64,000 nt of DNA from Octopus vulgaris (lineage: Eukaryota): NCBI GenBank assembly GCA_951406725.2, contig OX597817.1, positions 45,632,001 through 45,696,000 of the forward strand. The letters run 5' to 3'. Shown piece after piece: positions 21,177 through 63,829 of the stretch. Positions within the stretch are counted from its first letter, which is position 1, and each line of letters opens with the position of its first letter. The notes under the pieces were generated by a model. That model was not told the DNA's origin. It was given only the letters and a program-made list of their open reading frames with translations, and searched no databases. The position numbers were made by a program, and so were the translations under genes.

Positions 21177-21351
21177 GTTAATATTCATGATCCCTATATA
21201 TCAAGCTCTTCCTGAAAGAATGGAGCATGAAGATCATCCCATTTAGCCCGAAAACAATGTACATATAGTACCTACATACACACACACACACACATATATC
21301 CAGGGAAGAATACATATCTATCTATATATCTATATAAATGTATATATATAT

Positions 21352-21393
<42 letters not shown>

Positions 21394-21488
21394 GTGTATA
21401 TACTGATAGAAATGGCAGGACAGAAAATAATGAAAGAGATCTCGATATTATGTAAATAGAGGAATTTATATGTAAGTATAATATAATA

Positions 21489-21529
<41 letters not shown>

Positions 21530-21531
<2 letters not shown>

Positions 21532-22245
21532 AACGACGGTGAGTCAAAATTTTTTCGCTTACTTGACTTTTCAATGCATATACAAAAATCAGTGGATAAA
21601 CAAGTACGTTATTGTTCTGAATAGTCTCCTTCATACTCCTTGCACTTGGTCCAGCGGTCCACAAGTGTGCGTATTCCTTCGAAGTAGTTCTTCGGTTGGT
21701 CGTGCAACTATGTATAGATCGCTTCCTTCACATCTTCATCTGTAGGAAATTGACGACCTCGTAAACCGCTTTTGAGTGGTCTAAGTATATGATAGTCAGA
21801 AGTGGTGAAATCTGGGCTGTAGGCAGGGTACTCCAACACCCCCAGACCAAATTTGTTAACGGTTTCAAACAGTCTGGGTGGTCGCGTGTGGGCGTGCGTT
21901 GCTATGCAACAACAAAACTTTCTTCGACAATAGGCCTCGGTGTTTGGTACTAATTGCAGGCTACAATTTGTTGACCAACAAAGCACTGTATCTTGCACTT
22001 TTGATCGTACACCCTTTTCCAGGCAGTCTTCCAGTATAGCTCTTTTTGAGTCCCAAAGAAGGCTTAGCGTCACCTTTCCCTTGGAAGACTGGGTCTTGAA
22101 TACCTTTGTCGCGGGCGAGCCAAGATGTTTCCAACCCATACGCCGTGTTTTGGATTCTGCATCATAATGATGGACACAAATTTCTTCGGAAAATTTGCAG
22201 TCAATTACCTGGCCCTCTACTACTATGTGATATTAATATTCAGAT

Positions 22246-33380: not shown

Positions 33381-33612
33381 TATTTCTTTACCACCCACAA
33401 GAGACTAAACGCAGAGAGGACAAACAAGGGCAGACAAACGGATTAATTCGATTACATCGACACCAGTGCGTAACTGGTTCTTAATTTATCGACCCCGAAA
33501 GGATGAAAGGCAAAGTCGACCTCGGCGCAATTAGAACTCAGAACGTAGCGGCAGGTGAAATACGGCTACGCATTTTGCCCGGCATGCTAACGTTTCCGCC
33601 AGCTCACCGGCT
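33381..33612 (-). mobile_element. tRNA-derived SINE (family B, gtgggtggtaaagaaa tail)
   Basis: Full-length reverse complement of 37639-37872. Confidence 0.85.
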
Positions 33613-35721: not shown

Positions 35722-35884
35722 TGGTTTCAAATTTTGGCACAAGACAGGCAAATTTCGCAGGGGAGGGAAAAGACGATTACGTCGACCTCAGTTTCCGACT
35801 GGTATCTATTTTATCAACCCCGAAATGAGAAAAAGCAATGTCCACTTTGGAAGAGTTTGAACTGAGAACGTAAAGACGGACGAA
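35722..35884 (-). mobile_element. SINE family B fragment (gtgccaaaatttgaaacc tail)
   Basis: Matches 3246-3459 and 44592-44740. Confidence 0.6.
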
Positions 35885-36647: not shown

Positions 36648-37638
36648 TACTATCATGTCACAAATTATTGCATGTTTATATATATAAATTTAGCGAACGA
36701 CACAGTGTACACGAAATGTCAGTTTTAGCAACAACACTTAGAAGAACGTGTATATTCATTTTGAGAGCAAGTTCTATTTTTCCAATAATAAATGCTCACA
36801 GTCATGCTATTGAACTTTATTTCTCAGTTGGTTAATCATTTCGCTAATCAACTAACCGACTATTTGATTAATCATACGATCAATCAACGAGCTAGGTTTG
36901 TCAAAATCCTTTCATTGCTAATGATGATCTCATCAATGGCGTGCCTCTCTAATTCAAGTCTGATTCAAGACGGTCACTCCACTTCAGCTCAGAATTAGAT
37001 ATGTATTTCCTTATTCATGAACCAGTAATTAAAAATCAGAATTGAAAACAAATATCAGTCAATACCGGAGATTCCAACAAAAAGATAACATGCGTTACCT
37101 ACAAGAATACACAAACAGCACATAAACATCATACATTAGCCAATATAATTTTAATATTTTAGAAATATAGCCAATATGGGACTCAGGCACTAATGAAAGA
37201 TAAGAATCTCATCCTTGTTTCGGAAGTAAGCTTTCGCCTTGGATTACCATCATTATCGTAGCTGTTTCATCTCACAGATTTAATAAATTGCAGTTTACTA
37301 CTATATTCTTGGACAACGGTCATTGACAAAAAAAAAACAGGTTTTGAGCAAACAAATCAAGCGGTAACTGTTGTGTATTCTGAATTTGTTAAAATTGATC
37401 TGTAGATAGGAATGAAAATGTAAATTTTAGTAGTGCTATAAACTCCGAATTAGAGTTAGGGGAGTTTCAGTAAATTGAACGTAATGTTAAGATTAACAAG
37501 AAAAATCTGATCTCTGTTTCGGAAGTGATGGACAGTTGTGAAGACTCTGTTCTAGCTTAGATTTGACCTAGCTAACGCAGCATTACATTTCTTGCCTAGG
37601 ACTCAGTTGTAGACATGGTAATATAAACAGAAGTTCTA

Positions 37639-38101
37639 AGGTGGCGGGCTGGCAAAATCGTTAGCTCAATGGGCAAAATGCTTCGCGGTATTTCGTCTGC
37701 CACTACGTTCTGAGTTCAAATTCCGCCGAGGTCGACTTTGCCCTTCATCCTTTCGGGAGCGATAAATTAAGTACCAGTTACGCACTGGGGTCGATATAAT
37801 CGACTTAATCCGTTTGTCTGTCCTTGTTTGTCCCCTCTATATTTAGCCCCCTTGTGGGCAATAACAAAATATATGGTTTAACGACGCTTGTATTGATTTA
37901 TTACGTAAATATAACACGGTTTTTCGTCTGCCGTTACGTTCAGAGTTCAAATTCCGCCGAGGTCGACTGTGCCTTTCATCCTTTCGGGGTCGATTAAATA
38001 AGTACCAGTTACGCACTGGGGTCGATATAATCGACTTAATCCGTTTGTCTGTCCTTGTTTGTCCCCTCTGTGTTTAGCCCCTTGTGGGTAGTAAAGAAAT
38101 A
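37639..38101 (+). mobile_element. Two tandem SINE family B copies
   Basis: 37639-37872 is complete with head (B box gagttcaaattcc). 37915-38101 lacks the first ~45 nt. Both end in ccccttgtggg(c/t)a(a/g)taa(c/a)..aa. Confidence 0.85.
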
Positions 38102-39041
38102 GATACAGTTACTGATTTGCTAAATTTTCGATGGAGTAGATGATGGAAGCGTATTGAACTCGGTAGAAAACTTTCAAAATCTACTATTATTTGCCGGATG
38201 CATAAATGCTTCGCTGATACCAGGTGAAAATGTAAACACATATATAGCAAATTCCAGTGTACATTTATTGAAACCAGCAAAGCTAAAGTAATAAACGTAT
38301 AAATTCGAAGAAAGTCCATTAAAATTAAGCAGCTAATTGTTCAACCACATAATGATTCTTTCACTATCATAAACACCATCACGTTATCACTCCCGAGAAT
38401 TTCTATATATCTCCCGTTCTTCAACAACAAAATATCGTTTAAATACTTTCAAATGAAGCATAATACTATATTTAAATACATATGAAGCATACTAAATTTG
38501 CCCTGCTAGTATCATTAGCAAAAATGCAATACAAATTCAACATATACTGATACTAAATTAATAAAAAGTAAGTTTCCGGCCAAAACATAATCTGCAAATT
38601 CATATCATAAATCGTTGCGAATCATATATATTCAGCATCTTCGGCATAAGTGAATGACAATATATAATAAAAATATATTAGTTTCTATTTATCTATTTAG
38701 TGTATATGCTGATCTTATATTCCTTATTTCTAATAAATATACATATTCTCGTAGTATATAAAATAACTGCTCTTTTTTAGTTTCCATATAGCAATTGCAT
38801 TTTAAGATAATTTCTCATTATCTCTATTGGTATCATATCTTTATAATCATTTCTGAGTGTAAATTCTCCTCTGTTTAGAGTGATCTTCACCCATCGTATT
38901 CTACAGAACCATGATTCGATTCCTGAGTGGATTTAATACGCAGTATGCTTCCACTAAACAGGTTATGTTACTCAAAAAAAAAGTATAACCTTAATTGAGA
39001 TTAAAAAAACAGTTTCTCTTTATTTATATACACCATTTATA

Positions 39042-39476
39042 TACTCTTTACTCTTTTACTCTTTTACTTGTTTCAGTCATTTGACTGTGGCCATGCTGGA
39101 GTACCGCTTTTAGTCGAGCAAATCGACACCAGGACATATTCTTTGCAAGCCTACTTCTTATTCTATCGGTCTCTTTTGCCAAACCGCTAGGTTACGGGGA
39201 CGTAAACACACCAGCATCGGTTGTCAAATGATGTTGGGGGGACAAACACAGACACACAAACACACAGACACATATATATATATATATTTATATATAAATG
39301 TATACATATATACGACGGGATTCTTTCAGTTTCCGTCTACCAAATCCACTCACAAGGCTTTGGTCGGCCCGAGGCTATAGTAGAAGACGCTGGCCCAAGG
39401 TGCTACGCAGTGGCATTGAACCCAGAACCATGTGGTTCGTAAGCAAGCTACTTACCACAAAGCCACTCCTACGCCT
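39042..39476 (-). mobile_element. Full-length tRNA-derived SINE (family A)
   Basis: Head aggcgtaggagtggctttgtggtaag...gggttcaatgcc, internal (TA)/(TG) tract, (gagtaaaa)n tail. Confidence 0.85.
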
Positions 39477-39674
39477 ATATGTTAACTATTTTTCGTTAGT
39501 TTTAGGAGATAGTGATAGTAAATCAGTTTTAAGTGCCAAGCTCATTCTTTCCACTGTAGATGGTTAGTACTTCACTTCCTTAAAACTAAATGAATAACAC
39601 AGAGAGACCGTTTCTATCTTCTGTTATTTTCAGCTTTAATGTTACTATTTTTACTGTGTAAACATTTATCAATT

Positions 39675-42280: not shown

Positions 42281-42507
42281 CTCTTTTACTTGTTTCAGTC
42301 AATTTGACTGCGGCCATGCTTGAGCATCGCCTTCAGCCGAACAAATCGACCCCAGGACGTATTCTTTGTAAGCCTAGTACTTATTATATCGGTCTCTTTT
42401 GCCGAACCACTAAGTTACGGGGACGTAAACACACCACCATCGGTTGTCAAGCGATGTTGGGGGAGACAAAAACAGACACACAAACATACACGCACACACG
42501 CACTTAC

Positions 42508-42554
<47 letters not shown>

Positions 42555-42791
42555 GACAGTGCCCCAGCAGGGCCACAGCTCGTGGATAAAATAAAATAAA
42601 AAGATAAAAAATATATATATACATATATTCGACTGGCTTCACTCAGTTTCCGTCTACCAAATCCACACACAAGGCTTTGGTCGGCCCAAGGCTGTAGTAA
42701 AAGACACTTGACGAAGTTGCCACGTAGTGGGACTAAACCGAGAACCATGTGGTTGGTAGCAAGCTACTTACCATGTTGCCACTCCTACCCC
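42281..42791 (-). mobile_element. SINE family A with internal SINE-tail insertion
   Basis: Matches 39042-39476; extra gtgccccagcagggccacagctc at ~42559, also seen at 11401. Confidence 0.8.
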
Positions 42792-43848
42792 TACCTGCTG
42801 GGATGAGAAACAAACCAAGCTCAGAAAAATCACCCACGATTCGCTAACGTGTATTTCGGAATTTGCATATGAATGTAAATTCATAATCGTAAATAACTGT
42901 GCGTAAATGACGTATCCTTATAACTGCGTACCAATGCATTTGCAATATTACCTTGTTTTTGACTCGATGCTATTTCGAATACTTTGAGAGTCGGATTCGA
43001 GTCATCCAAGATCTCAGAGCCATAAACCTCGATGAGTATGTGCTTTTTCAGCTCAGTTTTTCCTAACCTAGATTGATTCTTTGCTCGACAAACAGACAAC
43101 AGATATTTCTTTGCGGTGTTTGTGGTGCTACTGCGTTAATGAAATATAAATATTTATGCAGCTTTCTCGAAACATAAAATCTCGTATAATGCCCTTGACG
43201 TGTGAGAGATCGATTCTTGGTCTTGCCATACTGTTGTATACCGTAAGAGTCAATGAATAAAAAGAGAAAAAAAGACAAAAACCATACAAATTTAAAGTAA
43301 TAGAAAGGCAGATAAGAGGTTTTTTTATACCATATAACTGGTCGTGAACTAGTATACGTATACGCTTCGCATACCTAGTTTCAACTTATTTCGTATAGCG
43401 AAAGCCATGAATATTTATAAATAACTAACATAAATACAAAATTGCATTTTTGTTGATGAAGAATAATTATTAATTTTCATATCGTTTATTATCAAAAGTT
43501 TCAGATGATTTATTATCCTAAAAGTGTTGTATCTCCTAATGACTTTTTTCTTCCTTTCTTTCATTTAAATTCTTTTACTTACTGTCAACACATTTTAGTG
43601 TAATATGTTATCATCATATACTTATTGTTTTTAATATAAATTTATCTGACTTTTAATTACACAAGTTTTAGTCGTCTTTTATCATTTACGCAATGAAATT
43701 TATATACTAAATTTCCTGAAATGATCCTAGAATTTTACATTACTGCAACTCAGTGCAGGTTCAAATCCTGTATAAGCAATTTTATTTATATTAGAAATGT
43801 CGGTTTCAAATTCTTCCTCTCCCCAGCATGTTTGAGGTGGCGGAATGA

Positions 43849-44205
43849 GTTTCAGTCATTTGACTGTGGCCATGCTGAAGCACCTCCTTTAGTCGAGCAA
43901 ATCGACCCCAGGACTTATTTTTTGTAAGCCAATACTTATTCTATCGGACTCTTTTGCCGAACCGCTAAGATACGGAGACGTAAACACACCAGCATCAGTT
44001 GTCAAGCGATATTGGGGAGAACAAACACATACACACACACATATATATATATACGACGGCATTCTTTTCAGTTTCCGTCTACCAAATCCACTCGCAAGGT
44101 TTTGTTCGGCCCGAGGATATAGTAGAAGACACTTGCCCAAGGTGCCACGCAGTGGGACTGAACCCGGAACTATGTGGTTCGTAAGCAGGCTACTTACCAC
44201 ACAGT
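43849..44205 (-). mobile_element. SINE family A
   Basis: Matches 39042-39476. Confidence 0.85.
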
Positions 44206-44591: not shown

Positions 44592-45237
44592 ACAGGTTTC
44601 AGATTTTGGCACAGGGGCAACAATTACGTTGAGGGGACGCCAGTGCTCTGTTCGTATTTATTTTATCAATCTCGAAAAAATGAGAGGCAAAGTCGACCTC
44701 GGCAGAATTTGATCTCAGAGCGTAACAGCAGACGAAATACCCATTTCTTTACTACCCACAAGGGGCTTAACACAGAGAGGACAAACAAGGACAGACAAAC
44801 GGATTAAGTCGATTATATCGACTCCAGTGCGTAACTGGTACTTATTTAATCGACCCCGAAAGGATGAAAGGCAAAGTCGACCTCGGCGGAATTTGAACTC
44901 TGAATGTAACAGCAAACAAAATATCTATTTCTTTACTACCTACAAGGGGCTAAACGCAGAGAGGACTAACATGAACAAATAAACGGATTTATGTCGATTA
45001 TATCGACCCCAGTGCGTAACTGGTACTTATTTAACCGACTCCGAAAGGATGAAAGGCAAAGTTGACCTCGGCGGAATTTGAACTCAGAACATAGCGGCAG
45101 ACGAAATAACTACTTCTTTTTACTACCAATTAAAATACAGAGGGAACAAACAAGGACAGACATACGGATTAAGTTGATTATATCGACCCCAGTGCATTTC
45201 GCCCGGCGTGCTAACGTTTCTGCCAGCACAACGCCTT
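44592..45237 (-). mobile_element. Nested tandem cluster of SINE family B
   Basis: Three units ending in the gg(t)agtaaagaa-type tail (tail ends near 44742, 44927 and 45114) lie between the head (45194-45237) and body (44592-44740) of a host family B copy. Confidence 0.8.
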
Positions 45238-45831
45238 ATATCAGTAATTGTATCGTCGAAATCCTGTATAAAACGACGCAGTGCCATTCGTACAATGTTA
45301 AATAAATAAATATTACAAGGCTACATTTGTTTCTGTAATGAACAAGGATATAATTCAATATGTATTCTCTTTTCCCGTTAAGTTGTTACTTGCACGTATG
45401 GCAGTAATCACACATACATGTCAATGTAAAGATGCGCGACTTGTTAATTAAATCGTTCAACACACGATGATAAAGACGTGAGTTTGTTTCTAGACAGCAT
45501 TCTTTTTAACTATTCCAGTTCATTCAGTTGAAAATGTGTACCAACTAAATGTTGGTGGAGTCCTTCTTCGTTTCAGCTGTTCTATTCACGATATTCCGAC
45601 GGATTAAGTGCTGTGGGGACGAAATATTGCTTATAAATAATCGCAAATACTTAGGCAGCAAAAGCAGTTAGCATAAGTATGGTGATTCTTTATTACCCAC
45701 TAGGGGCGACACAGAGGTGGACACCAAGAGACATGGGGACATAGAACATTATAATTAAAATTTATGAAAATGAATTGTTAAACGAAAAAATGATAAAATG
45801 AAAGCGATACCAACGGCCCCGTCCGTCAGCA

Positions 45832-47254
45832 TCACTTACCTGTCCTTTGTTTTTCATAGTCACTTGAATGTTCTTTGCCAATACGAATAAATTCCATATC
45901 CATTCTTACTCCGAAATACTCATCCATATTTTCCACGAATTCATCGCTCATTCTTATATCTTTCACCTCCCAATTCTCCCTTTCACACCTCACCATAAAC
46001 TCACCTATGTTCTTCTTTTCAATCACAGCATACCTAGTCTCACCAACTTCATACCATTTATACTCTTCCATTAGACTTTTAACTTCTTTCTGTTCAGTCA
46101 TAGTACAAATGTACGGCCTGATATCGAATTCAATCTCTTGTCTGTGTGTGTATTCTTTTTTTTTCTTTTGTTTTCTTGTTGGGGGGGAGCGGGTGGGTTC
46201 AATGTCTGCAGGAATAGTGTGGGACTCAGAGGGTGTGGGTGGTTTTGGGGTAGATTGGTGTTCCATGTTATTTTCTTTGCCTCGTATTCTTCTCTTCATC
46301 TTATTTCCAGCTTCCTTCCATTTCTGTGTATTCTCTTCCTCTTCTACTGTCTCCTTCTCCTCTGGTTTCTGCTTCTCTCTCTCTGGTTCGGAATCCATTT
46401 CTTTCCCTGGGGGAGGGCAGAAGGCTCTTATGTGACCCCTCAGGCCACACTTGTAACAACGTGGAGCTCTGCCCTCCACCCACACTCTCATGATCACGTC
46501 TCACAATCTGATGCTTTCCGCCAGGTCCACCAGTACCTCGGTCTCTGCCTGTACGTTCAGCTCCACTGTTACGCCTCTCCATCCCTCGGACTTAACCGAG
46601 GCATGGAGAATATCCACTTCCTCCTCGTGGCCGCTGATCACAGCCGCCACAATCCACTCTGCCTCCACGTTTGGTGGCACTCCCTCCACCCTTATTCGTG
46701 TAATCCTTCTGTTTAAATACGTAGGTAAGTGTTACCTTTTCTGACTTCACCGCCTTCGCCGCCATCTTCCTCGCTGCAGATTCACTTTTAAAATGTACCA
46801 CTACGGTTCCGTACTTGGATCCTCGAGTCAGAAAATTTATTTCCTCCTCAGTTCTTCTCAGGGCTTCCTCTATCCATTCCATGGTTACAACTTCTACCCT
46901 CTTCCATTCGTTTGCGAACACCCTGTAAATAATGGTCCTCTTATCATACCATTCTTTTCTCCTGGGTGTCGGTGATAGTTCCACCTCACCGCTTTCCTTT
47001 TTCATGTATTTCTGGTAACTTGGTAGCTTGGCCAAGTCGACCCCTTTCTCTTCCGCCTTCTTGGTTACACCGGCAGAGGTATAACCCAGCTTCTAATCCA
47101 ATTTCTTCGCTGCCATTTCTAGCTCATTCTCAGACGTAGACAAGTCTGATAAAGACTCAAAAACTCCAGCCTTTTCTTCCATCAGCTTCATTGTAATTGC
47201 CTGTTCCAGTTCCTCATCTGTCGTGGACAAGTCTGTTAGAGACTCATAGTCCAT
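45832..47254 (-). pseudogene. Unit 1 ORF1-like gene, disrupted
   Basis: Fragments 46592-47035, 46501-46689 and 45832-46497; nonsense codons at ~47093 and 46501 and a 2-nt deletion at ~46728. Confidence 0.85.
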
Positions 47255-47599
47255 TTCCTTCTGTCTGACAGACCGAAAACGGCCGCCAAAACAGAAAAAG
47301 TGTAACGCGCAGAACGAGCGAAACGCGAAACCGCATCAACGCCGTTCACAATTTCCACAACAACAACAACGCTTTTTGTTCTTTTTTACCGAATTTTCAG
47401 GAGCCGAAAAAAACACAACCGACCAAATGGGTTAGCATAAGTATGGTGTTTCATAATTACCCACTAGGGGCGACACAGAGATGGACACCAAAAGACATGG
47501 GGACATAGAACATTTATAATTAAAATTTATGAAAAATGAATTGTTAAGTGAAAGAAAATGATATTATGAAAGCGATACCAACGGCCCCATCCGTCAGCA

Positions 47600-49021
47600 T
47601 CACTTACCTGTCCTTTGTTTTTCATCGTCCCTTGAATGTTCTTTGCCAATACGAATAAATTCCATATCCATTCTTACTCCGAAATACTCATCCATATTTT
47701 CCACGAATTCATCGCTCATTCTTATATCTTTCACCTCCCAATTCTCCCTTTCACACCTCACCATAAACTCACCTATGTTCTTCTTTTCAATCACAGCATA
47801 CCTAGTCTCACCAACTTCATACCATTTATACTCTTCCATTAGACTTTTAACTTCTTTCTGTTCAGTCATAGTACAAATGTACGGCCTGATATCGAATTCA
47901 ATCTCTTGTCTGTGTGTGTATTCTTTTTTTCTATTGTTTTCTTGTTGGGGGGAGCGGGTGGGTTCAATGTCTGCATGGATAGGGTGGGACTCAGAGGGTG
48001 TGGGTGGTTTTGGGGTAGATTGGTGTTCCATGTTATTTTCTTTTCCTCGTATTCTTCTCTTCCTCTTATTTCCAACTTCCTTCCATTTCTGTGTATTTTC
48101 TTCCTCTTCTACTGTCTCCTTCTCTTCTGGTTTCTGCTTCTCTCTCTCTGGTTCGGAATCCATTTCTTTCCCTGGGGGAGGGCAGAAGGCTCTTATGTGA
48201 CCCCTCAGGCCACACTTGTAACAACGTGGAGCTCTGCCCTCCACCCACACTCTCATGATCACGTCTCCCAATCTGATGCTTTCCGCCAGGTCCACCAGTA
48301 CCTCGTTCTCCGCCTGTACGTTCAGCTCCACTGTTACGCCTCTCCAGCCCTCGGACTTAACCGAGGCATGGAGAATATCTACTTCCTCCTCGTGGCCGCT
48401 GATCACAGCCGCCACAATCCACTCTGCCTCCACGTTTGGGGGCACTCCCTCCACCCTTATTCGTGTAATCCTTTTGTTTAAATACATAGGGAAAAGTGTT
48501 ACCTTTTCTGACTTCACCGCCTTCGCCGCCATCTTCCTCGCTGCAGACTCACTTTTAAAATGCACAACTACTGTACCGTACTTGGATCCTCGAGTCAGAA
48601 AATTAATTTCCTCCTCAGTTCTCCTCAGGGCTTCCTCTATCCATTCCATGGTTACAACTTCTACCCTCTTCCTTTCGTTTGCGAACACCCTGTAAATAAT
48701 GGTCCTCTTATCATACCATTCTTTTCTCCTGGGTGTCGGTGATAGTTCCACCTCACCGCTTTCCTTTTTCATGTATTTCTGGTAACTTGGTAGCTTGGCC
48801 AAGTCGACCCCTTTCTCTTCCGCCTTCTTGGTTACACCGGCGTAGGTATATCCCAGCTTCTCGTCCAATTTCCTTGCTGCCATTTCTAGCTCCTTCTCAG
48901 ACGTAGACAAGTCTGATAAAGACTCGAAACCTCCAGCCTTTTCTTCCATCAGCTTCATTGCAATTGCCTGTTCCAGTTCCTCATCTGTCGTGGACAAGTC
49001 TGTTAGAGAATCATAGTCCAT
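47600..49021 (-). CDS. Unit 2 ORF1/gag-like nucleic-acid-binding protein, 473 aa (L1/Tx1-type)
   Basis: CYKCGLRGHIRAFC (CX2CX4HX4C) preceded by RRM-like alpha/beta segments (GTVVVHFKSESAARK, TRIRVEGVP, MRVWVEGR). Continuity past codon ~360 depends on homopolymer lengths at ~47920-47955. Confidence 0.8.
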   Translation of the reverse strand: MDYDSLTDLSTTDEELEQAIAMKLMEEKAGGFESLSDLSTSEKELEMAARKLDEKLGYTYAGVTKKAEEKGVDLAKLPSYQKYMKKESGEVELSPTPRRKEWYDKRTIIYRVFANERKRVEVVTMEWIEEALRRTEEEINFLTRGSKYGTVVVHFKSESAARKMAAKAVKSEKVTLFPMYLNKRITRIRVEGVPPNVEAEWIVAAVISGHEEEVDILHASVKSEGWRGVTVELNVQAENEVLVDLAESIRLGDVIMRVWVEGRAPRCYKCGLRGHIRAFCPPPGKEMDSEPEREKQKPEEKETVEEEENTQKWKEVGNKRKRRIRGKENNMEHQSTPKPPTPSESHPIHADIEPTRSPQQENNRKKEYTHRQEIEFDIRPYICTMTEQKEVKSLMEEYKWYEVGETRYAVIEKKNIGEFMVRCERENWEVKDIRMSDEFVENMDEYFGVRMDMEFIRIGKEHSRDDEKQRTGK

Positions 49022-49368
49022 TTCCTTCTGTCTGACAGACCGAAAACGGCCGCCAAAACAGAAAAAAGTTTAACGCGCAGAACGAGCGAAACGCGAAACC
49101 GCATCAACGCCGTTCAGAATTTCCACAACAACAACAACGCTTTTTGTTCTTTTTTACCGAATTTTCAGGAGCCGAAAAAAAACACAACCGACCAAATGGG
49201 TTAGCATAAGTATGGTGTTTCATAATTACCCACTAGGGGCGACACAGAGGTGGACACCAAAAGACATGGGGACATAGAACATTTATAATTAAAATTTATG
49301 AAAAATGAATTGTTAAGTGAAAGAAAATGATATTATGAAAGCGATACCAACGGCCCCATCCGTCAGCA

Positions 49369-50793
49369 TCACTTACCTGTCCTTTGTTTTTCATCGTCCC
49401 TTGAATGTTCTTTGCCAATACGAATAAATTCCATATCCATTCTTACTCCGAAATACTCATCCATATTTTCCACGAATTCATCGCTCATTCTTATATCTTT
49501 CACCTCCCAATTCTCCCTTTCACACCTCACCATAAACTCACCTATGTTCTTCTTTTCAATCACAGCATACCTAGTCTCACCAACTTCATACCATTTATAC
49601 TCTTCCATTAGACTTTTAACTTCTTTCTGTTCAGTCATAGTACAAATGTACGGCCTGATATCGAATTCAATCTCTTGTCTGTGTGTGTATTCTTTTTTTT
49701 TCTATTGTTTTCTTGTTGGGGGGGAGCGGGTGGGTTCAATGTCTGCATGGATAGGGTGGGACTCAGAGGGTGTGGGTGGTTTTGGGGTAGATTGGTGTTC
49801 CATGTTATTTTCTTTTCCTCGTATTCTTCTCTTCCTCTTATTTCCAACTTCCTTCCATTTCTGTGTATTTTCTTCCTCTTCTACTGTCTCCTTCTCTTCT
49901 GGTTTCTGCTTCTCTCTCTCTGGTTCGGAATCCATTTCTTTCCCTGGGGGAGGGCAGAAGGCTCTTATGTGACCCCTCAGGCCACACTTGTAACAACGTG
50001 GAGCTCTGCCCTCCACCCACACTCTCATGATCACGTCTCCCAATCTGATGCTTTCCGCCAGGTCCACCAGTACCTCGTTCTCCGCCTGTACGTTCAGCTC
50101 CACTGTTACGCCTCTCCAGCCCTCGGACTTAACCGAGGCATGGAGAATATCTACTTCCTCCTCGTGGCCGCTGATCACAGCCGCCACAATCCACTCTGCC
50201 TCCACGTTTGGGGGCACTCCCTCCACCCTTATTCGTGTAATCCTTTTGTTTAAATACATAGGGCAAAGTGTTACCTTTTCTGACTTCACCGCCTTCGCCG
50301 CCATCTTCCTCGCTGCAGACTCACTTTTAAAATGCACAACTACTGTACCGTACTTGGATCCTCGAGTCAGAAAATTAATTTCCTCCTCAGTTCTCCTCAG
50401 GGCTTCCTCTATCCATTCCATGGTTACAACTTCTACCCTCTTCCTTTCGTTTGCGAACACCCTGTAAATAATGGTCCTCTTATCATACCATTCTTTTCTC
50501 CTGGGTGTCGGTGATAGTTCCACCTCACCGCTTTCCTTTTTCATGTATTTCTGGTAACTTGGTAGCTTGGCCAAGTCGACCCCTTTCTCTTCCGCCTTCT
50601 TGGTTACACCGGCGTAGGTATATCCCAGCTTCTCGTCCAATTTCCTTGCTGCCATTTCTAGCTCCTTCTCAGACGTAGACAAGTCTGATAAAGACTCGAA
50701 ACCTCCAGCCTTTTCTTCCATCAGCTTCATTGCAATTGCCTGTTCCAGTTCCTCATCTGTCGTGGACAAGTCTGTTAGAGAATCATAGTCCAT
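49369..50793 (-). CDS. Unit 3 ORF1-like gene, 363 aa, single in-frame TAG then same-frame C-terminal domain
   Basis: ORFs 49702-50793 and 49369-49638 are in the same frame; TAG replaces the AAG of unit 1. Confidence 0.75.
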
Positions 50794-51139
50794 TTCCTTC
50801 TGTCTGACAGACCGAAAACGGCCGCCAAAACAGAAAAAAGTTTAACGCGCAGAACGAGCGAAACGCGAAACCGCATCAACGCCGTTCAGAATTTCCACAA
50901 CAACAACAACGCTTTTTGTTCTTTTTTACCGAATTTTCAGCAGCCGAAAAAAACACAACCGACCAAATGGGTTAGCATAAGTATGGTGTTTCATAATTAC
51001 CCACTAGGGGCGACACAGAGATGGACACCAAAAGACATGGGGACATAGAACATTTATAATTAAAATTTATGAAAAATGAATTGTTAAGTGAAAGAAAATG
51101 ATATTATGAAAGCGATACCAACGGCCCCATCCGTCAGCA

Positions 51140-52562
51140 TCACTTACCTGTCCTTTGTTTTTCATCGTCCCTTGAATGTTCTTTGCCAATACGAATAAAT
51201 TCCATATCCATTCTTACTCCGAAATACTCATCCATATTTTCCACGAATTCATCGCTCATTCTTATATCTTTCACCTCCCAATTCTCCCTTTCACACCTCA
51301 CCATAAACTCACCTATGTTCTTCTTTTCAATCACAGCATACCTAGTCTCACCAACTTCATACCATTTATACTCTTCCATTAGACTTTTAACTTCTTTCTG
51401 TTCAGTCATAGTACAAATGTACGGCCTGATATCGAATTCAATCTCTTGTCTGTGTGTGTATTCTTTTTTTTCTATTGTTTTCTTGTTGGGGGGAGCGGGT
51501 GGGTTCAATGTCTGCATGGATAGGGTGGGACTCAGAGGGTGTGGGTGGTTTTGGGGTAGATTGGTGTTCCATGTTATTTTCTTTTCCTCGTATTCTTCTC
51601 TTCCTCTTATTTCCAACTTCCTTCCATTTCTGTGTATTTTCTTCCTCTTCTACTGTCTCCTTCTCTTCTGGTTTCTGCTTCTCTCTCTCTGGTTCGGAAT
51701 CCATTTCTTTCCCTGGGGGAGGGCAGAAGGCTCTTATGTGACCCCTCAGGCCACACTTGTAACAACGTGGAGCTCTGCCCTCCACCCACACTCTCATGAT
51801 CACGTCTCCCAATCTGATGCTTTCCGCCAGGTCCACCAGTACCTCGTTCTCCGCCTGTACGTTCAGCTCCACTGTTACGCCTCTCCAGCCCTCGGACTTA
51901 ACCGAGGCATGGAGAATATCTACTTCCTCCTCGTGGCCGCTGATCACAGCCGCCACAATCCACTCTGCCTCCACGTTTGGGGGCACTCCCTCCACCCTTA
52001 TTCGTGTAATCCTTTTGTTTAAATACATAGGGCAAAGTGTTACCTTTTCTGACTTCACCGCCTTCGCCGCCATCTTCCTCGCTGCAGACTCACTTTTAAA
52101 ATGCACAACTACTGTACCGTACTTGGATCCTCGAGTCAGAAAATTAATTTCCTCCTCAGTTCTCCTCAGGGCTTCCTCTATCCATTCCATGGTTACAACT
52201 TCTACCCTCTTCCTTTCGTTTGCGAACACCCTGTAAATAATGGTCCTCTTATCATACCATTCTTTTCTCCTGGGTGTCGGTGATAGTTCCACCTCACCGC
52301 TTTCCTTTTTCATGTATTTCTGGTAACTTGGTAGCTTGGCCAAGTCGACCCCTTTCTCTTCCGCCTTCTTGGTTACACCGGCGTAGGTATATCCCAGCTT
52401 CTCGTCCAATTTCCTTGCTGCCATTTCTAGCTCCTTCTCAGACGTAGACAAGTCTGATAAAGACTCGAAACCTCCAGCCTTTTCTTCCATCAGCTTCATT
52501 GCAATTGCCTGTTCCAGTTCCTCATCTGTCGTGGACAAGTCTGTTAGAGAATCATAGTCCAT
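51140..52562 (-). CDS. Unit 4 ORF1-like gene, frameshifted in homopolymer region (374 aa)
   Basis: ORFs 51438-52562 and 51140-51616; otherwise nearly identical to units 2 and 3. Confidence 0.7.
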
Positions 52563-52908
52563 TTCCTTCTGTCTGACAGACCGAAAACGGCCGCCAAAAC
52601 AGAAAAAAGTTTAACGCGCAGAACGAGCGAAACGCGAAACCGCATCAACGCCGTTCAGAATTTCCACAACAACAACAACGCTTTTTGTTCTTTTTTACCG
52701 AATTTTCAGCAGCCGAAAAAAACACAACCGACCAAATGGGTTAGCATAAGTATGGTGTTTCATAATTACCCACTAGGGGCGACACAGAGATGGACACCAA
52801 AAGACATGGGGACATAGAACATTTATAATTAAAATTTATGAAAAATGAATTGTTAAAGTGAAAAAAATGATATTATGAAAGCGATACCAACGGCCCCATC
52901 CGTCAGCA

Positions 52909-54331
52909 TCACTTACCTGTCCTTTGTTTTTCATCGTCCCTTGAATGTTCTTTGCCAATACGAATAAATTCCATATCCATTCTTACTCCGAAATACTCAT
53001 CCATATTTTCCACGAATTCATCGCTCATTCTTATATCTTTCACCTCCCAATTCTCCCTTTTCACACCTCACCATAAACTCACCTATGTTCTTCTTTTCAA
53101 TCACAGCATACCTAGTCTCACCAACTTCATACCATTTATACTCTTCCATTAGACTTTTAACTTCTTTCTGTTCAGTCATAGTACAAATGTACGGCCTGAT
53201 ATCGAATTCAATCTCTTGTCTGTGTGTGTATTCTTTTTTTTCTATTGTTTTCTTGTTGGGGGGGAGCGGGTGGGTTCAATGTCTGCATGGATAGGGTGGG
53301 ACTCAGAGGGTGTGGGAGGTTTTGGGGTAGATTGGAGTTCCATATTATTTTCTTTTTCCTCCACATATTCTTCTCTTCCTCTTATTTCCAACTTCCTTCC
53401 ATTTCTGTGTATTTTCTTCCTCTTCTACTGTCTCCTTCTCTTCTGGTTTCTGCTTCTCTCTCTCTGGTTCGGAATCCATTTCTTTCCCTGGGGGAGGGCA
53501 GAAGGCTCTTATGTGACCCCTCAGGCCACACTTGTAACAACGTGGAGCCCTGCCCTCCACCCACACTCTCATGATCACTTCTCCCAGTCTGATGCTTTCC
53601 GTCAGGTCCACCAGTACCTCGGTCTCTGCCTGTACGTTCAGCTCCACTGTTACTCCTCTCCAGCCCTCGGACTTAACCGAGGCATGGAGAATATCTACTT
53701 CGTCCTCGTGGCCGCTGATCACAGCCGCCACAATCCATTCTGCCTCCACGTTTGGTGGCACTCCCTCCACCCTTATTCGTGTAATCCTCCTGTTTAAATA
53801 CGTAGGTAACAGTGTTACCTTTTCCGACTTCACCGCCTTCGCTGCCATCTTCCTCGCTGCAGATTCACTTTTAAAGTGCACAACTACGGTCCCGTACTTG
53901 GATCCTCGAGTCAGAAAATTTATTTCCTCCTCAGTTCTTCGCAGGGCTTCCTGTATCCATTCCATGGTTACAACTTCTACCCTCTTCCTTTCGTTTGCGA
54001 ACACCCTGTAAACAATGGTCCTCTTATCATACCATTCTTTTCTCCTGGGTGTCGGTGATAGTTCCACCTCACCGCTTTCCTTTTTCATGTATTTCTGGTA
54101 ACTTGGCAACTTGGCCATGTCGACCCCTTTCTCTTCCGCCTTCTTGGTTACACCGGCATAGGTATAACTCAGCTTTTCTTCCAATTTACTTGCTGCCATT
54201 TCTAGCTCCTTCTCGGACAAGTCTGATAAAGACTCGAAAACTCCAGCCTTTTCCTCCATCAGCTTCACTGCAATTGCCTGTTCCAGTTCCTCATCCGTCG
54301 TGGACAAGTCTGTTAGAGACTCATAGTCCAT
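52909..54331 (-). pseudogene. Unit 5 ORF1-like gene, divergent 5' part, frameshifted after 328 aa
   Basis: ORF 53345-54331 with about 17 aa differences from unit 2; the downstream part is broken. Confidence 0.75.
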
Positions 54332-54512
54332 TTCCTTCTGTCTGACAGACCGAAAACGGCCGCCAAAACAGAAAAAGTGTAACGCGCTGAACGAGCGAAA
54401 CGCGAAACCGCGTCAACGCCGTTCAGAATTTCCACAACAACAACAACCTTTTTTGTTCTTTTTTACCGAATGTTCAGCAGCCGAAAAAAACACAACCGAC
54501 CAAATGGTAGCA

Positions 54513-55474
54513 GTGCTCGGTTGTGACATATTTCTTTATTACCCACCAGGGGGCGACACAGAGGGGGACACCACAAGACATGGGGACATAGAACATTATA
54601 ATTAAAATTTATGAAAATGAATTGTTAAACGAAAAAATGATAAAATGAAAGCGATACCAACGGCCCCGTCCGTCAGCATCACTTACCTGTCCTTTGTTTT
54701 TTATAGTCACTTGAATGTTCTTTGCCAATATGAATAAATTCCATATCCATTCTTACTCCGAAATACTCATTCATATTTTCCACGAATTCATCGCTCATTC
54801 TTATATCTTTCACCTCCCAATTCTCCCTTTCACACCTCCCCATAAACTCACCTATGTTCTTTTTTTCAATCACAGCATACCTAGTCTCTCCAACATCATA
54901 CCGTTTATACTCTTCCATTAGACTTTTAACTTCCCTCTGTTCAGTCATAGTACAAATGTACGGCCTGGGTTCGATTTCAATCTCTTGTGTGTGTGTATTC
55001 TTTTTTTTCTTTTGTTTTCTTGTTGGTGGGGAGCGGGTGGGTTCAATGTCTGCATGGATAGGGTGGGACTCAGAGGGTGTGGGAGGTTTTGGGGTAGATT
55101 GGAGTTCCATATTATTTTCTTTTTTTCCACATATTCTTCTCTTCCTCTTATTTCCAGCTTCCTTCCATTTCTGTGTATTCTCTTCCTCTTCTACTGTCTC
55201 CTTCTCCTCTGGTTTCTGCTTCTCTCCCTCTGGTTCGGAATCCATTTCTTTCCCTGGGGGAGGGCAGAAGGCTCTTATGTGACCCCTCAGGCCACACTTG
55301 TAACAACGTGGAGCCCTGCCCTCCACCCACACTCTCATGATCACTTCTCCCAGTCTGATGCTTTCCGTCAGGTCCACCAGTACCTCGGTCTCTGCCTGTA
55401 CGTTCAGCTCCACTGTTACGCCTCTCCAGCCCTCGGACTTAACCGAGGCATGGAGAATGTGCTCGGTTGTGACA
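54513..55474 (+). repeat. 16-bp TSD gtgctcggttgtgaca flanking unit 6
   Basis: Identical at 54513-54528 and 55459-55474. Confidence 0.95.
54679..55458 (-). pseudogene. Unit 6 ORF1-like gene, 5'-truncated
   Basis: Homology begins at ILHASVKSEG (55458). The apparent N-terminus MTTKQRSVAVTTEH comes from flank and TSD. Confidence 0.85.
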
Positions 55475-55521
55475 GCTACGCTACGCTGTTTGGTGGTCAT
55501 TTATGCAATTTTATGGAGAGA

Positions 55522-55560
55522 CTAGCTATTTTGACCCGTGCTTCGCTCGGGTCAAAATGG
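55522..55560 (-). mobile_element. Helitron 3' terminus (5' end not located)
   Basis: Minus strand attttgacccgagc gaa gcacgggtcaaaat ag CTAG t: strong hairpin followed by CTAG-T. Confidence 0.65.
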
Positions 55561-58216
55561 TGGTGTAGTTCTTTTGTGCGTGTTGTCTCCTTTTCTCATT
55601 CTTCTTTTGTTCTTTGCCTGGTTCTTTTTCTTATGTTTTTATTTTTTCTTCGTATTTTTCTTCTTTTTCTTCTTTCTCTTCTTCTACTGTTTCTTTTCTC
55701 CTTTTCCCCTATTCCTTATCATAGCAACCAAATGGTAGCCCCGAGCGACTTGCAACACCCCTCACAACATTGCCCACTCCATTTTACCCCCCCAGTGTAA
55801 ATTTAGCGCCAATCCGACCCCATCTACCGCCGCTTAAAATGAGACAAATAACCAAGAAAACAAACAACTTTTTCGCATTTCAGCTGTATTGATATTGATG
55901 AAAATCCAAAGAGTGTAATTCCCTTCAACAGACTATGTTTTCTGGGCAAGCAAACAACCTAAGTCTACTACTTTCTTTTTGTTCGGTATTTTGTTCCCGA
56001 TGATATTCCTCACAGAGTGATGAATCTATATATTTATGTATAATTTTGCAGCAATATGGTTGTTTGACCTTATTAAATTCAAGAAAGAATTCTGAAATAA
56101 TTTGAATATTTTTAATTTTAAAATTTGCTGTACAATGCTATATATGCATATATTTTCTCCTCGTCGTTTGTCTGTGTGTACGACTCTTCAATAGACAAAA
56201 CAAATTTTACGCTTGCACAAGTCACAGATTACAAAATAGCTGAAAGTTTTTGTTCGCTTTTGTTGTCTCTCAGTGTTATCTCCTGGTGTTATGCACTTTG
56301 ATCTATGTTCTTATTTTGTGCGTCTGTTGTTTGTGATGTCTGCTCATTCTTTAGTCGATATCTACTTGACTTTCCGAAATCTCGAAGGAATAGAAACTTG
56401 GCTTGTTTCGAACTTTGCATACAATTTGAATGTCTATTTATTTAGTGAATATGTCGTACGATCTGTATGAAGAATAGTTGAGATTTAAATTGTTTGTATT
56501 GGGAATGAAACGCTAGCACACTTACAAAACCAATAGACGTCTGAACAATTCAAATATTCTTTCAAATCTCTAGCACCGAATCGCAAGTTTCTTGCAGTTG
56601 TGATTAAATTGTTATTTAAATGTATTGAGTGAATGTGTAGTATTTTATCTAATATTATTTGTCCGTAAAATATAACCAAAATTCAAGGTATCCTGTTCTG
56701 AAATTATGTCACTTTCGTTCTTCATTTTAGAATTATATCTTAGCTTTTTATTTTCTAGATAAAGGTAACAATTTCTGTCTTCACAAAGTCAATTTATTTG
56801 ATAGGATTTTGCATTTTAGATATTTGCAAATTACGGTTTGGAGAGCTTCCAATATTGACACTTTTTGAAACTCATGAATCTATAAAATGTGGTGATATTA
56901 TTTCGTCTACTCTTTGATTCTCTGAAATAGTATTATTAGATTATTCCCTATCTTTGATTCATAAGAAAAAGGCCTTCGTTTCATGTTTCGTACGTAGCCT
57001 TACCTTAAAGCAGCAAAGATAGCCGAAAATGTGCTTTTTCCTCAGATTTCCTAATTTTACGACATTTTGTGGTAGTTATTGAACTTTTAATTTTCAAAAG
57101 CTGCGAGTAAAAACGTTGATCTAATCCTGTACAGTATGGAGGTCCATATTTTATATTCTAGAAGAATTATTATTAGTTTTCTAGCTATTTTTCATTTTTC
57201 CTAGAGATTTTTTCCTCAAAATTATCGTTTTTTCTATGGTTGGTGTTGTCGAACATTACTTTTATTTCTATCCAGACCATAATATATTTTCCAATGAACA
57301 GTACTGTAGAATAATATCTTTCTCGAATGCTTTAATTTGCATTTTCATAGCTATGTTTTATTGTCTCTGTGGAATTTAGCAGTGTAATAAACATTTGTCA
57401 AGAACACTTTCCAGGTGGTATGGTTAATTACTATATGTCTATATACATTTTTGCTGTTAGGCTCCATAGTTATTTGCAAATTGCTATCTTTGTCACCATT
57501 TGTTTCTGAATATATATTTGTTTAAAGAGGATATTAATTTCCATGCCAACGTGAAATGTATGATGATTCTTCTTAAATAAGTAATTATTCTCAATATAAA
57601 ATGTCTTCTCTCCCAAACCTTGGTAATGGCCAGAGCTTTTACCTTTCATATTAAGTACAGCCAGTAAGTAATAGATTCATAATTTTATTTAAATGGAACC
57701 AGGAAAATTGAAATGAGAAATGAACAAAAATGTATCCTTCTCTTATATATATAGCATTGAAACATTATCACTGAGCAGCAGAAAACTGTGCTTTAATGGA
57801 TGAATCCTCATTCGTTTTAAATGTCATCATTCTGGCTATATATAACATGGTCTTCTGAATTCAATTATTTAGCTTACAAGTGCGAAAGCTGTAGTATGAA
57901 ATATAATTATTAGTTACAAATGGAAAACCATAACTTATTTTACGATGTCTACAAGAAAACAAAAGCAGTTGCAAGTGCGTTAACAAACCTGTTGCAGAAT
58001 GAACCACACCCATTGTTAAGGACTCTGTGCTATCAATTGAAATGATCATTTTTATAAGGACGATTGTTTTTACGAAAATTACAGTTCTGATTCCTAAAAG
58101 AGTTACAAGGCCAAGAATTACCGAGACATGTTGCGAGCCGGTGATTAAATTTTCAATATTAGTTCAAATAAAATGAATGTTAGTAATCGATGACTTAACA
58201 AAGACATCAGCAACAA

Positions 58217-61873: not shown

Positions 61874-62035
61874 CAGGAGTGGCAATGTGGTAAGTAGCTT
61901 GCTTACTAACCACATTGTTTCGGGTTCATTCCCACTGCGTGGTACCTTGGGCTAGTGTCTTCTCCTGTAGCCTCGGGCCGACCAAAGCCTTCTGAGTGGA
62001 TTTGGTAGGCGAAACTGAAAGAAGCCCGTCGTATA

Positions 62036-62077
<42 letters not shown>

Positions 62078-62311
62078 TGTGTGTGTGTGTGTGTATATGT
62101 TTTTGTGTCTGTGTTTGTCCCTCCAATATCGCTTGACAAATGATGGCGTTGTGTTTACGTCCCCGTAATCTAGCGGTTGGGCAAAAGAGAAACCGATAGA
62201 ATATGTACTAGACTTACAAAGAATAAGTCTTTGGGTCGATTTGCTCAACTAAAGGCGGTAATCCAGCATAGCCGCAGTCAAATGACTGAAACAAGTAAAA
62301 GAGTAAAAGAG
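61874..62311 (+). mobile_element. Full-length SINE family A
   Basis: Reverse complement of 39042-39476. Confidence 0.85.
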
Positions 62312-62852: not shown

Positions 62853-63374
62853 AAACAGCTACATTACGGGAATGTAAATAGAATAACATCGGTTCTCAAA
62901 TAATGGTGGGGAAACAACAAAAATATATACAGCCTTGTGAGTGGATTTGGTTGGCAGAAACTGAAAGAAACCCGGCCTATATGTGTGTGTGTGCGAGTGT
63001 ATGTGTGTGTGAATGTGTATTTGTGTGTGTGTGTACATAATATATCTGTATTTAAACATATGTGGGCTTGTATATGTCTGACGTGGAGTGGAACCGAAGT
63101 CGAAACCAGGTGGTTTTGAGAGTTAAAGAAAGGTAAAACTAAGCTCTAGGGTATCTTTTATCGTATATTTTTTACTTGTTTCAGTCATTGCTACAACCAT
63201 ACAAGAATGCTGCCTTAAAGTCTTGCGACGAACGGATTGGCCCCATTACTTATTTTAAGCTGGTGCTTATTCGAAGTGTCTCCGTGCCGAAACGTCATTT
63301 CACGGAGATGTAATCACCAGTTTGTGAAGCACTGTCGGAAAAAAAACAAAAGTATACACACACACACGACATTA

Positions 63375-63787
63375 GCCGTAGGTGTGGATGTGTGGTAAAT
63401 TGCTTGCGTACGAACAACATGGTTCCGGGTTCAGTCCCACTGCGTGGCACCTTGCGCAAGTGTCTTCTACTATAGCCTCGGGCCGACCGAAGCCTTGTGA
63501 GTGGATATGGTAGACGGAAACTAAAAGAAGCTCGTAGTATATATGTATATATATATATATATATGTACGTGTGTGTTCGTGTGTCTGTGTTTATCTCGCC
63601 ACCATTGCTTGACAACCGATGCTGGTGTGTTTACGTCCCCGAAACCTCGCGGTTCGGCAAAAGAGACCGATAGAATAAGTATTAGGTTTACAAAGAATAA
63701 GTCCTGGAGTCGATTTTCTCGACTAAAGGTGGTGCTCCAGCATGACCGCAGTCAAATGACTGAAACAAGTGAAAGAGTAAAGAGTAA
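63375..63787 (+). mobile_element. Full-length SINE family A
   Basis: B box ggttcagtccc, family A body, (aagagta)n tail. Confidence 0.85.
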
Positions 63788-63789
63788 GC

Positions 63790-63829
<40 letters not shown>

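What the first reader, a model, noticed from the sequence alone, without database searches (positions are those of the whole stretch)
45685..45745. ORF1-only element and a tRNA-SINE share the same 3' terminus: three-part system with an unseen partner LINE
Seen: element 3' end (minus strand) tgtccacctctgtgtcgcccctagtgggtaataaagaat in unit 1 and tgtccccctctgtgtcgccccctggtgggtaataaagaaa in unit 6. SINE family B ends tgtcccctctgtgtttagccccttgtgggtagtaaagaaa (38060-38099; also 33381, 37830, 44742). Neither carries a real poly(A) tail. Known: SINEs borrow the 3' end of the LINE whose RT recognises it, whereas mammalian L1 and HAL1 rely on poly(A). Inference: a stringent, 3'-end-recognising LINE mobilises both a non-coding SINE and a protein-coding half-element.
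Basis: partly seen in the sequence, partly recalled or inferred. Interest (0 to 1): 0.8.

Follow-up and report, generated by a model that had tools for sequence, protein, structure and literature searches.

The report
Octopus half-LINE shares a SINE's tail
A very common octopus jumping element that codes only for an RNA-binding protein ends in nearly the same 50 letters as an abundant short non-coding repeat, so both likely borrow the copying enzyme of a third, full-length element that was not found here.

Summary
The shared end is real. The last ~50 nt of the ORF1-only units and of the SINE align terminus to terminus (40-41 of 50 columns; 0 of 1000 shuffles reach the best scores). The element is a 1.75-kb octopus non-LTR retroelement. 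It has one ORF (two RRM folds plus a CCHC knuckle, no RT or endonuclease) under purifying selection, 16-18-nt target-site duplications and one 5'-truncated copy. It is high-copy, and it forms head-to-tail joints elsewhere with different spacers. The partner LINE was not seen: no genome is held, and 478 contig loose ends were not displayed. Stringent recognition is therefore inferred. A shared weak hairpin is possible but shows no compensatory change. 'No poly(A)' holds for the window, but the element ends in AATAAA and one contig shows A9. ORF1-only elements (HeT-A, HAL1, Ag-Sponge) and SINE/LINE shared tails are both known. I found no report of the three-way case, or of any such element in a mollusc (10 searches; Repbase and Dfam not checkable). 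Verdict: new variant of a known kind, moderate interest.

The parts
45685..45740 (-). 3' tail of unit 1, homologous to the SINE tail; ends in AATAAAGAAT; can form a weak three-part hairpin
45685..47430 (-). Unit 1: full-length ORF1-only element (ORF frameshifted), flanked by an exact 18-nt duplication
45667..45684 (.). 18-nt target-site duplication of unit 1; the same 18 nt separate the units at 47431-47448, 49200-49217, 50971-50988 and 52740-52757
47449..49199 (-). Unit 2: ~178-nt 5' UTR, open 473-codon ORF, 154-nt 3' UTR including the stop, variant end TTATGAAA
47600..49021 (-). ORF1-type protein P0001: two RRM-like folds (residues ~96-265), CCHC knuckle (266-281), charged linker, C-terminal region of unknown fold; no RT or endonuclease
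49218..52739 (-). Units 3 and 4, 99.8-99.9% identical to unit 2: likely local DNA duplication (or assembly expansion)
52758..54507 (-). Unit 5, a mosaic: identical to unit 2 in alignment columns 1201-1600 (0 of 396 differences), 3-6.5% different upstream
54529..55458 (-). Unit 6: 5'-truncated copy with an exact 16-nt TSD (54513-54528 and 55459-55474); its tail is the closest to the SINE's
37917..38100 (+). SINE B copy truncated inside the head; best tail match at 38050-38100
37638..37870 (+). Full-length SINE B copy with A- and B-box-like motifs; decayed tail
33381..33612 (-). Full-length SINE B copy with a decayed TSD of about 14 nt (4 of 1000 shuffles)
44610..45236 (-). Head-to-tail SINE stack: one internally deleted B copy, two head-truncated B copies, and one copy with a different tail

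Best explanation
The 1.75-kb repeat is a high-copy octopus retroelement that encodes only a LINE-type ORF1 protein, and its last ~50 nt are homologous to the 3' end of an abundant SINE; both likely took this end from, and would be copied by the reverse transcriptase of, an autonomous ORF1+ORF2 LINE lineage that was not found here. Shown: ORF1-only structure, retrotransposition marks, selection on the ORF, tail homology. Inferred mechanism: (1) The half-element arose from a LINE by loss of ORF2, keeping its 5' promoter region, ORF1 and 3' end. (2) Its own ORF1p coats its RNA in cis, which would explain why the ORF is conserved. (3) The LINE's ORF2p binds the shared 3' ~50 nt (U-rich stretch, weak hairpin, A-rich end) and primes reverse transcription at a nick, leaving 16-18-nt TSDs. 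(4) The SINE acquired the same end from the same LINE lineage, probably earlier, which would explain the ~80% rather than near-100% match. (5) New copies tend to land just 3' of older copies, and unequal crossing-over then multiplied one unit locally. L1-Tx1 is my first candidate for the partner; its clade is not determined.
For: Tail homology is significant, anchored at both termini and confined to ~50-60 nt. Exact 18-nt and 16-nt TSDs, and a 5'-truncated copy. Predicted tandem RRM folds (pLDDT >90 over residues ~71-270; Foldseek top hits are two-RRM proteins, E 3e-5) plus a CCHC knuckle match type I ORF1 (PMC4120745 passages). pN/pS against unit 2 is 0.27 (unit 1) and 0.21 (unit 5). 5339, 1346, 439 and 208 contigs of four runs from three organism labels lie on the unit. 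Summed depth is of similar order from the 5' to the 3' end and 2-4 orders of magnitude above the unique flank. Contigs 84-87% alike still run from the ORF end across the stop into the 3' UTR, so the ORF1-only layout is old. 9 of the 12 displayed joint rows are head-to-tail joints with different 6-35-nt inserts, and the SINEs stack head-to-tail too. The SINE body also occurs with a second, unrelated tail, so the tail behaves as an exchangeable module. The proposed hairpin is fully paired (10 of 10) in 4 of 9 tails, two element and two SINE. O. vulgaris has 13 recently active L1-Tx1 families (421 insertions, 2.29 Mb, mean about 5.4 kb by my division; PMC13282606).
Against: No LINE with this tail was seen. 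None of the 24 displayed loose ends leads from the tail or the stop codon into foreign sequence (478 not displayed). No ORF1-ORF2 fusion appeared among 149 homologues scanned with Pfam or in two searches of longer proteins (weak tests). No compensatory base pair was found, and the folds are no more stable than shuffles; the 76-nt folds differ between element and SINE. A TSD was found at only 1 of 4 SINE loci tested. AATAAA and a possible A9 tail also allow poly(A)-based recognition. pN/pS for unit 6 is 0.65.
Confidence: 0.6

Rival explanations
1. The tail passed directly between the two non-autonomous elements: either the SINE body was joined to the half-element's 3' end by template switching, or a SINE supplied the 3' end of an ORF2-less LINE remnant. 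No present-day LINE need carry it.
For: The SINE body occurs with two different tails, so tail exchange happened. The half-element RNA is a plentiful donor, given its many copies. Tail exchange among SINEs is documented (PMC5786205, passages). No LINE with the tail was seen.
Against: Both elements still need an RT that accepts this end. The sharp ~50-nt limit and the terminal anchoring are what SINE/LINE pairs show (PMC3747384, passages on maize ~45-50 nt). The failure to see a LINE is uninformative without a genome.
Confidence: 0.2
2. A common LINE ancestor gave both ends, but recognition is relaxed. The conserved stretch is a 3'-end-formation signal (U-rich tract plus AATAAA or AGTAAA), and the RT reads an oligo(A) end, as mammalian L1 does with HAL1.
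For: AATAAA lies 4-6 nt from the end. One contig has A9 after the end. No covariation was found. Units 2-5 have lost AATAAA but look like DNA duplicates rather than retrotransposed copies.
Against: None of the 6 units and none of the 5 SINE B tails in the window has a poly(A) tract. A Pol III SINE would not be expected to need a Pol II polyadenylation signal (general knowledge). Conservation extends 40 nt upstream of the hexamer. Stringent LINEs can also end in poly(A) (SART1; PMC3747384).
Confidence: 0.15
3. The similarity is chance or compositional (pyrimidine-rich then A-rich ends).
For: The match is short and about 80% identical; 5 of 15 pairs are not significant.
Against: 0 of 1000 dinucleotide shuffles reach the score in 8 of 15 pairs, 0 of 96 real segments reach it, and the match sits at both termini.
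Confidence: 0.03

Closest known systems
HAL1 (half-L1) of mammals (PMC5753468 and PMC5786205, passages; Bao & Jurka 2010 not held)
   Same: Non-autonomous, encodes only ORF1p, interspersed, depends on a LINE ORF2p.
   Different: The ORF1 here is two RRMs plus CCHC (type I), with no Transposase_22 match. The host is a mollusc, the window copies have no poly(A) tract, and the 3' end is shared with a SINE.
HeT-A with TART/TAHRE in Drosophila (PMC5537684, passages)
   Same: ORF1/Gag-only, type I-like ORF1, head-to-tail arrays in one orientation, RT supplied in trans.
   Different: The 3' UTR is 154 nt rather than unusually long. Insertions are internal with 16-18-nt TSDs, there is no sign of chromosome-end targeting, and a SINE shares the tail.
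Ag-Sponge (CR1-derived ORF1-only element of Anopheles; one passage in PMC5786205)
   Same: ORF1-present bipartite non-autonomous LINE; CR1-type partners are of the stringent kind.
   Different: The parent clade here is unknown and no sequence comparison was possible. I saw no SINE partner mentioned for it.
SINE/LINE pairs with a common tail, e.g. UnaSINE/UnaL2, ZmSINE2/LINE1-1_ZM (PMC3747384, passages and Table 1)
   Same: Short homologous 3' terminus between two retroelements, with a possible hairpin.
   Different: The visible partner is itself non-autonomous and no compensatory changes were found. That table has no mollusc row and no Tx1 partner.
Octopus tRNA-derived SINEs of Ohshima & Okada 1994 (title seen in reference lists only; the name OK for this SINE is my recall, untested)
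   Same: Abundant octopus SINE with A- and B-box-like head.
   Different: Identity was not tested. No partner element was found reported in the passages read.

Membership tests
ORF1-present non-autonomous LINE (HeT-A/HAL1/Ag-Sponge class) | Single ORF of LINE ORF1 type | tested here: met
   Two RRM folds plus CCHC; type I definition from PMC4120745
ORF1-present non-autonomous LINE (HeT-A/HAL1/Ag-Sponge class) | No RT or endonuclease in the transposing unit | tested here: met
   The unit is 1.75 kb between TSDs with a 154-nt 3' UTR; diverged contigs cross the stop into the UTR
ORF1-present non-autonomous LINE (HeT-A/HAL1/Ag-Sponge class) | Retrotransposition marks (TSD, 5' truncation, many copies) | tested here: met
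   18-nt and 16-nt TSDs, truncated unit 6, thousands of contigs
ORF1-present non-autonomous LINE (HeT-A/HAL1/Ag-Sponge class) | An autonomous parent LINE sharing the 5' and 3' parts | not testable with these tools
   No genome held; indirect searches blank
HAL1 | Mammalian L1-type ORF1p (coiled coil-RRM-CTD, Pfam Transposase_22) | tested here: not met
   No PF02994 match in P0001 or 23 aligned relatives; the predicted fold has two RRMs and a CCHC
HAL1 | Poly(A) tail (recalled feature) | tested here: inconclusive
   None in 6 of 6 window units; AATAAA in units 1 and 6; A9 in one contig
HeT-A | Unusually long 3' UTR and insertion only at chromosome ends | tested here: not met
   154-nt 3' UTR; internal site with unique flanks and TSDs
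Tx1/L1 clade derivative | RT phylogeny of the parent | not testable with these tools
   No RT available; type I ORF1 occurs in I, Jockey, R1, Tad1, L1/Tx1, L2 and CR1 clades
Tx1/L1 clade derivative | Target-site preference | tested here: inconclusive
   Repeated head-to-tail joints, but the two TSDs share no clear sequence at the first nick
Stringent SINE/LINE tail system | Homologous 3' terminal sequence | tested here: met
   Between SINE and half-element only
Stringent SINE/LINE tail system | Conserved stem-loop with compensatory changes | tested here: inconclusive
   31 of 32 inner-stem cells paired, 0 of 4 pairs changed on both sides, 8 sequences only; z -1.6 to +0.4
Stringent SINE/LINE tail system | The tail is required for mobilisation | not testable with these tools
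   Needs a retrotransposition assay
tRNA-derived SINE | tRNA-related head with A and B boxes | tested here: inconclusive
   Box-like motifs present; no ARAGORN or Rfam match; no cloverleaf in the MFE fold

The most novel reading that the evidence does not exclude
Octopods carry an old radiation of ORF1-only elements. In it the half-element, not an autonomous LINE, is the donor of the SINE's tail, and its ORF1p (RRM-RRM-CCHC) is what reads that tail and delivers both RNAs to a LINE reverse transcriptase that does not itself carry the sequence. A non-autonomous element would then act as the helper of the genome's most abundant repeat class.
Probability: 0.12. Interest if true: 0.8.

Novelty: new variant of a known kind. 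Interest (0 to 1): 0.43.

Why it matters
SINEs make up 11.7% of the O. vulgaris genome, mostly unclassified (PMC13282606 supplement), and I found no partner named for this one. The shared 50 nt is a direct probe for finding that LINE. The element would extend ORF1-only retroelements from flies, mosquitoes and mammals to molluscs. It would also allow a clean test of two open points: whether animal L1/Tx1-type RTs read a specific 3' sequence or only poly(A), and what an ORF1 supplied in cis gains a parasite that competes with a SINE for the same RT. In practice its ORF contaminates octopus gene models: chimeric predictions carry its C-terminal part at 91-95% identity.

Tried and rejected
The tail pattern gave 0 matches in metagenome, viral and prokaryote contigs, and P0001 gave no relative in metagenome contigs. 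These collections are not expected to hold octopus DNA, so the blanks are uninformative. Searches of longer proteins (829-2365 aa and 1508-4305 aa) found no ORF1-ORF2 fusion (weak). Pfam on 149 homologues showed no endonuclease or RT domain at the thresholds used. P0005 joins the C-terminal part to what looks by eye like an endonuclease motif, without a Pfam hit; I take it as a chimeric gene model. 106 of 238 other open frames in the window were scanned with Pfam and showed no RT or endonuclease family. No listed run is on record as RNA, so nothing is claimed on expression. ESM Atlas gave CCHC-type clusters at 0.91-0.92 and a ZCCHC3-RBD cluster at 0.89, leads only. I suspected the C-terminal region was homologous to that of distant relatives, but BLASTP and an HMM did not support it. 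The ORF1 tree is poorly resolved (6 of 19 branches starred) and has no reference LINEs, so it gives no clade. RNAalifold on the tails found only a 3-pair stem, on an alignment that is off by two columns in the outer stem. Six independent insertions were rejected as the origin of the array: units 2-4 are 99.8-99.9% identical and unit 5 is mosaic. Earlier scan findings: nothing on this locus or sequence; the word hits concern other systems. Ten paper searches found no description of an octopus ORF1-only element or of this tail pair. Repbase, Dfam, the Zenodo library of PMC13282606, Bao & Jurka 2010 and Ohshima & Okada 1994 could not be seen and may already hold it.

Full report
**Setting.** The window is octopus DNA: the closest protein matches are named O. 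vulgaris records at 74-95% identity. No genome is held for it. Six units of a repeat lie head to tail on the minus strand between 45685 and 55458.

**Observation.** The quoted ends are there. With whole elements aligned against whole SINE copies, the best local alignment falls at both 3' termini in 12 of 15 pairs. At most 12 of 1000 dinucleotide shuffles reach the real score in 10 of 15 pairs, and none do in 8 of 15. None of 96 real window segments reaches the top score. Identity is 41 of 50 columns for unit 6 and 40 of 50 for unit 1, then falls to about half. The five weaker pairs involve the decayed SINE copies or the variant end of units 2-5. No copy in the window has a poly(A) tract. However, units 1 and 6 end in AATAAA and the SINE in AGTAAA, and one contig of run X3 has nine A's after the end, which may be a tail or an A-rich target.

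**The element.** Unit 2 has a 178-nt leader, an open 473-codon frame and a 154-nt 3' UTR. The AlphaFold model is confident over residues ~71-270, and fold searches match that part to tandem RRM proteins. A CCHC knuckle follows at 266-281. This is a type I ORF1, found in many LINE clades (PMC4120745 and PMC5203782, passages), so it does not fix the clade. There is no RT or endonuclease. Against unit 2, pN/pS is 0.27 for unit 1, 0.21 for unit 5 and 0.65 for the partial unit 6 (a simple count, not a codon model). HMMER finds 365 relatives at E <= 0.001. Of 20 looked up, 12 are named O. vulgaris, O. sinensis, O. bimaculoides or Argonauta hians, at roughly 20-58% identity, so the protein family is old in octopods. 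Whether those relatives also lack ORF2 could not be seen.

**Retrotransposition marks.** Unit 1 is flanked by an exact 18-nt duplication, and unit 6, which is 5'-truncated, by an exact 16-nt duplication. Units 2-4 are 99.8-99.9% identical and unit 5 is a mosaic. The middle of the array therefore likely grew by unequal crossing-over, or by assembly error, from a few independent insertions. Contigs of four public runs were laid on unit 1 and its flank: 5339, 1346, 439 and 208 contigs. Summed depth was of similar order from the 5' to the 3' end and, in the three runs that cover the flank, 2-4 orders of magnitude above it. The tool warns that this is no copy number, so I conclude only 'many, often full-length'. 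Contigs 84-87% alike run across the stop codon into the 3' UTR, so diverged subfamilies share the ORF1-only layout. Nine of the 12 displayed joint rows link a 5' end or a truncated 5' edge to another copy's 3' end, with nine different inserts of 6-35 nt (5 rows not displayed). Head-to-tail stacking is thus a property of the family, not of this locus. I infer that new copies land just behind older ones, or are joined by template jumping.

**The SINE.** It is about 230 nt long with A- and B-box-like motifs; ARAGORN and Rfam give no match. I recall it as the octopus OK family, which I could not test. Five copies start at the same point between the two boxes, and three of them are joined directly behind another copy's 3' end. 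The same head and body also occur with a second, unrelated tail in three copies, so tails are exchangeable. A decayed ~14-nt TSD was found at 1 of 4 SINE loci tested.

**Structure of the tail.** A three-part hairpin (UCU/AGA, UGU/RUA, GCCC/GGGU) can be drawn in both elements. It is fully paired in 4 of 9 tails (units 1 and 6 and two SINEs) and has 8-9 of 10 pairs in the rest (the unit-2 row was parsed from a different anchor). The inner stem keeps 31 of 32 cells paired, with three one-sided changes and no two-sided change. Folding is no better than shuffles, and the 76-nt folds of element and SINE differ. The structure is neither shown nor excluded.

**The missing partner.** It was not found. 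None of 24 displayed loose ends leads from the tail or the stop codon into foreign sequence, but 478 were not displayed. Protein searches for ORF1-ORF2 fusions were blank, and scans of non-animal collections were blank as expected. Candidates exist. O. vulgaris has 80 L1-Tx1 families, 13 of them recently active, plus L1, CR1 and I families (PMC13282606, main text parts 1-2 of 3 and supplement). O. sinensis has an unplaced I-superfamily clade (PMC10294476, passages). From general knowledge, RTE and Dong-R4 lack an ORF1 of this kind and are unlikely parents. Long TSDs and clustered insertion lean me to Tx1, many members of which have target preferences (PMC4494074, passages), but this is a lead only.

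**Mechanism.** Most likely (0.6), an ORF1+ORF2 LINE lineage gave its 3' end to both: the half-element by loss of ORF2, the SINE by tail capture. Its ORF2p then copies both, with the half-element's ORF1p acting in cis. Rivals are direct tail transfer between SINE and half-element (0.2), common descent with relaxed poly(A)-based recognition (0.15), and chance (0.03).

**Comparison and novelty.** ORF1-only non-autonomous LINEs are a described class: HeT-A from Jockey, HAL1 from L1, Ag-Sponge from CR1 (PMC5786205, passage; also PMC5753468 and PMC5537684, passages). This element works like them but fails the HAL1 ORF1 type and the HeT-A UTR and telomere features. SINE/LINE common tails are textbook; the table in PMC3747384 lists no mollusc and no Tx1 partner. 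Other papers seen as passages, none naming this element: PMC9223172, PMC4824008, PMC4758252, PMC9115989, PMC3531059 and PMC8967140. Ten searches found no octopus ORF1-only element and no SINE sharing a tail with one. Repbase, Dfam and the original 1994 and 2010 papers were out of reach. Verdict: a real, well-supported pairing of two known kinds of parasite in a new combination and lineage, with the third part still hypothetical. Interest 0.43.

Noticed in passing
window 44610-45236, 37917, 35884: Five SINE copies begin at the same point (position ~51-54 of the full copy, between the A- and B-box-like motifs), whatever lies upstream. This suggests a recurrent RT stop or RNA processing site.
   Followed up: partly
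window 3255-3462, 35725-35884, 44610-44741 (minus): A SINE subfamily with the same head and body but a different 3' tail, implying a second partner or a tail swap.
   Followed up: partly
window 47413 (loose ends, runs X1 and X10): A second subfamily of the element has a different 5' terminus (37 contigs in X1, median 8 nt). Both termini begin with initiator-like CAGT or CATT (motif recalled).
   Followed up: no
window 45330-45707 (record 24, run X3): In another organism label the orthologous left flank also joins a copy of this tail, but with 27 gap letters (not displayed). This may be an older or independent insertion at the same spot.
   Followed up: no
window 55475-55745: The right flank holds an 11-bp inverted repeat (~55525-55558) and, at ~55730-55740, a second ACCAAATGGTAGC motif like the junction at unit 5's 5' end; possibly a promoter-like region or a related element's start.
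   Followed up: no
window 13543-16301: A 386-codon open frame (14554-15714, minus) that looks by eye like a Penelope RT end plus GIY-YIG domain, between inverted repeats of ~680 nt at 97.5% identity; no Pfam hit.
   Followed up: no
window 20647-22232 (minus): An RTE-like C-terminal fragment (judged by eye) next to a mariner transposase fragment (PF01359).
   Followed up: no
proteins P0002-P0008, P0013, P0017, P0071, P0115, P0130, P0148: Predicted proteins that are chimeras of host or transposon exons and pieces of this ORF1 family; those looked up are octopus records.
   Followed up: partly
proteins P0144/P0156, P0029 cluster, P0027, P0032: Distant ORF1 relatives sit on contigs of 1.7-2.2 kb, the size of an ORF1-only unit. 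One (P0156) is on a 6159-nt contig that would leave room for an ORF2. The DNA could not be fetched.
   Followed up: no
window 39021-39482, 42281-42793, 43849-44204, 61875-62311, 63369-63812: Another dispersed repeat family of about 450 nt, five copies at 75-85% identity; not examined.
   Followed up: no
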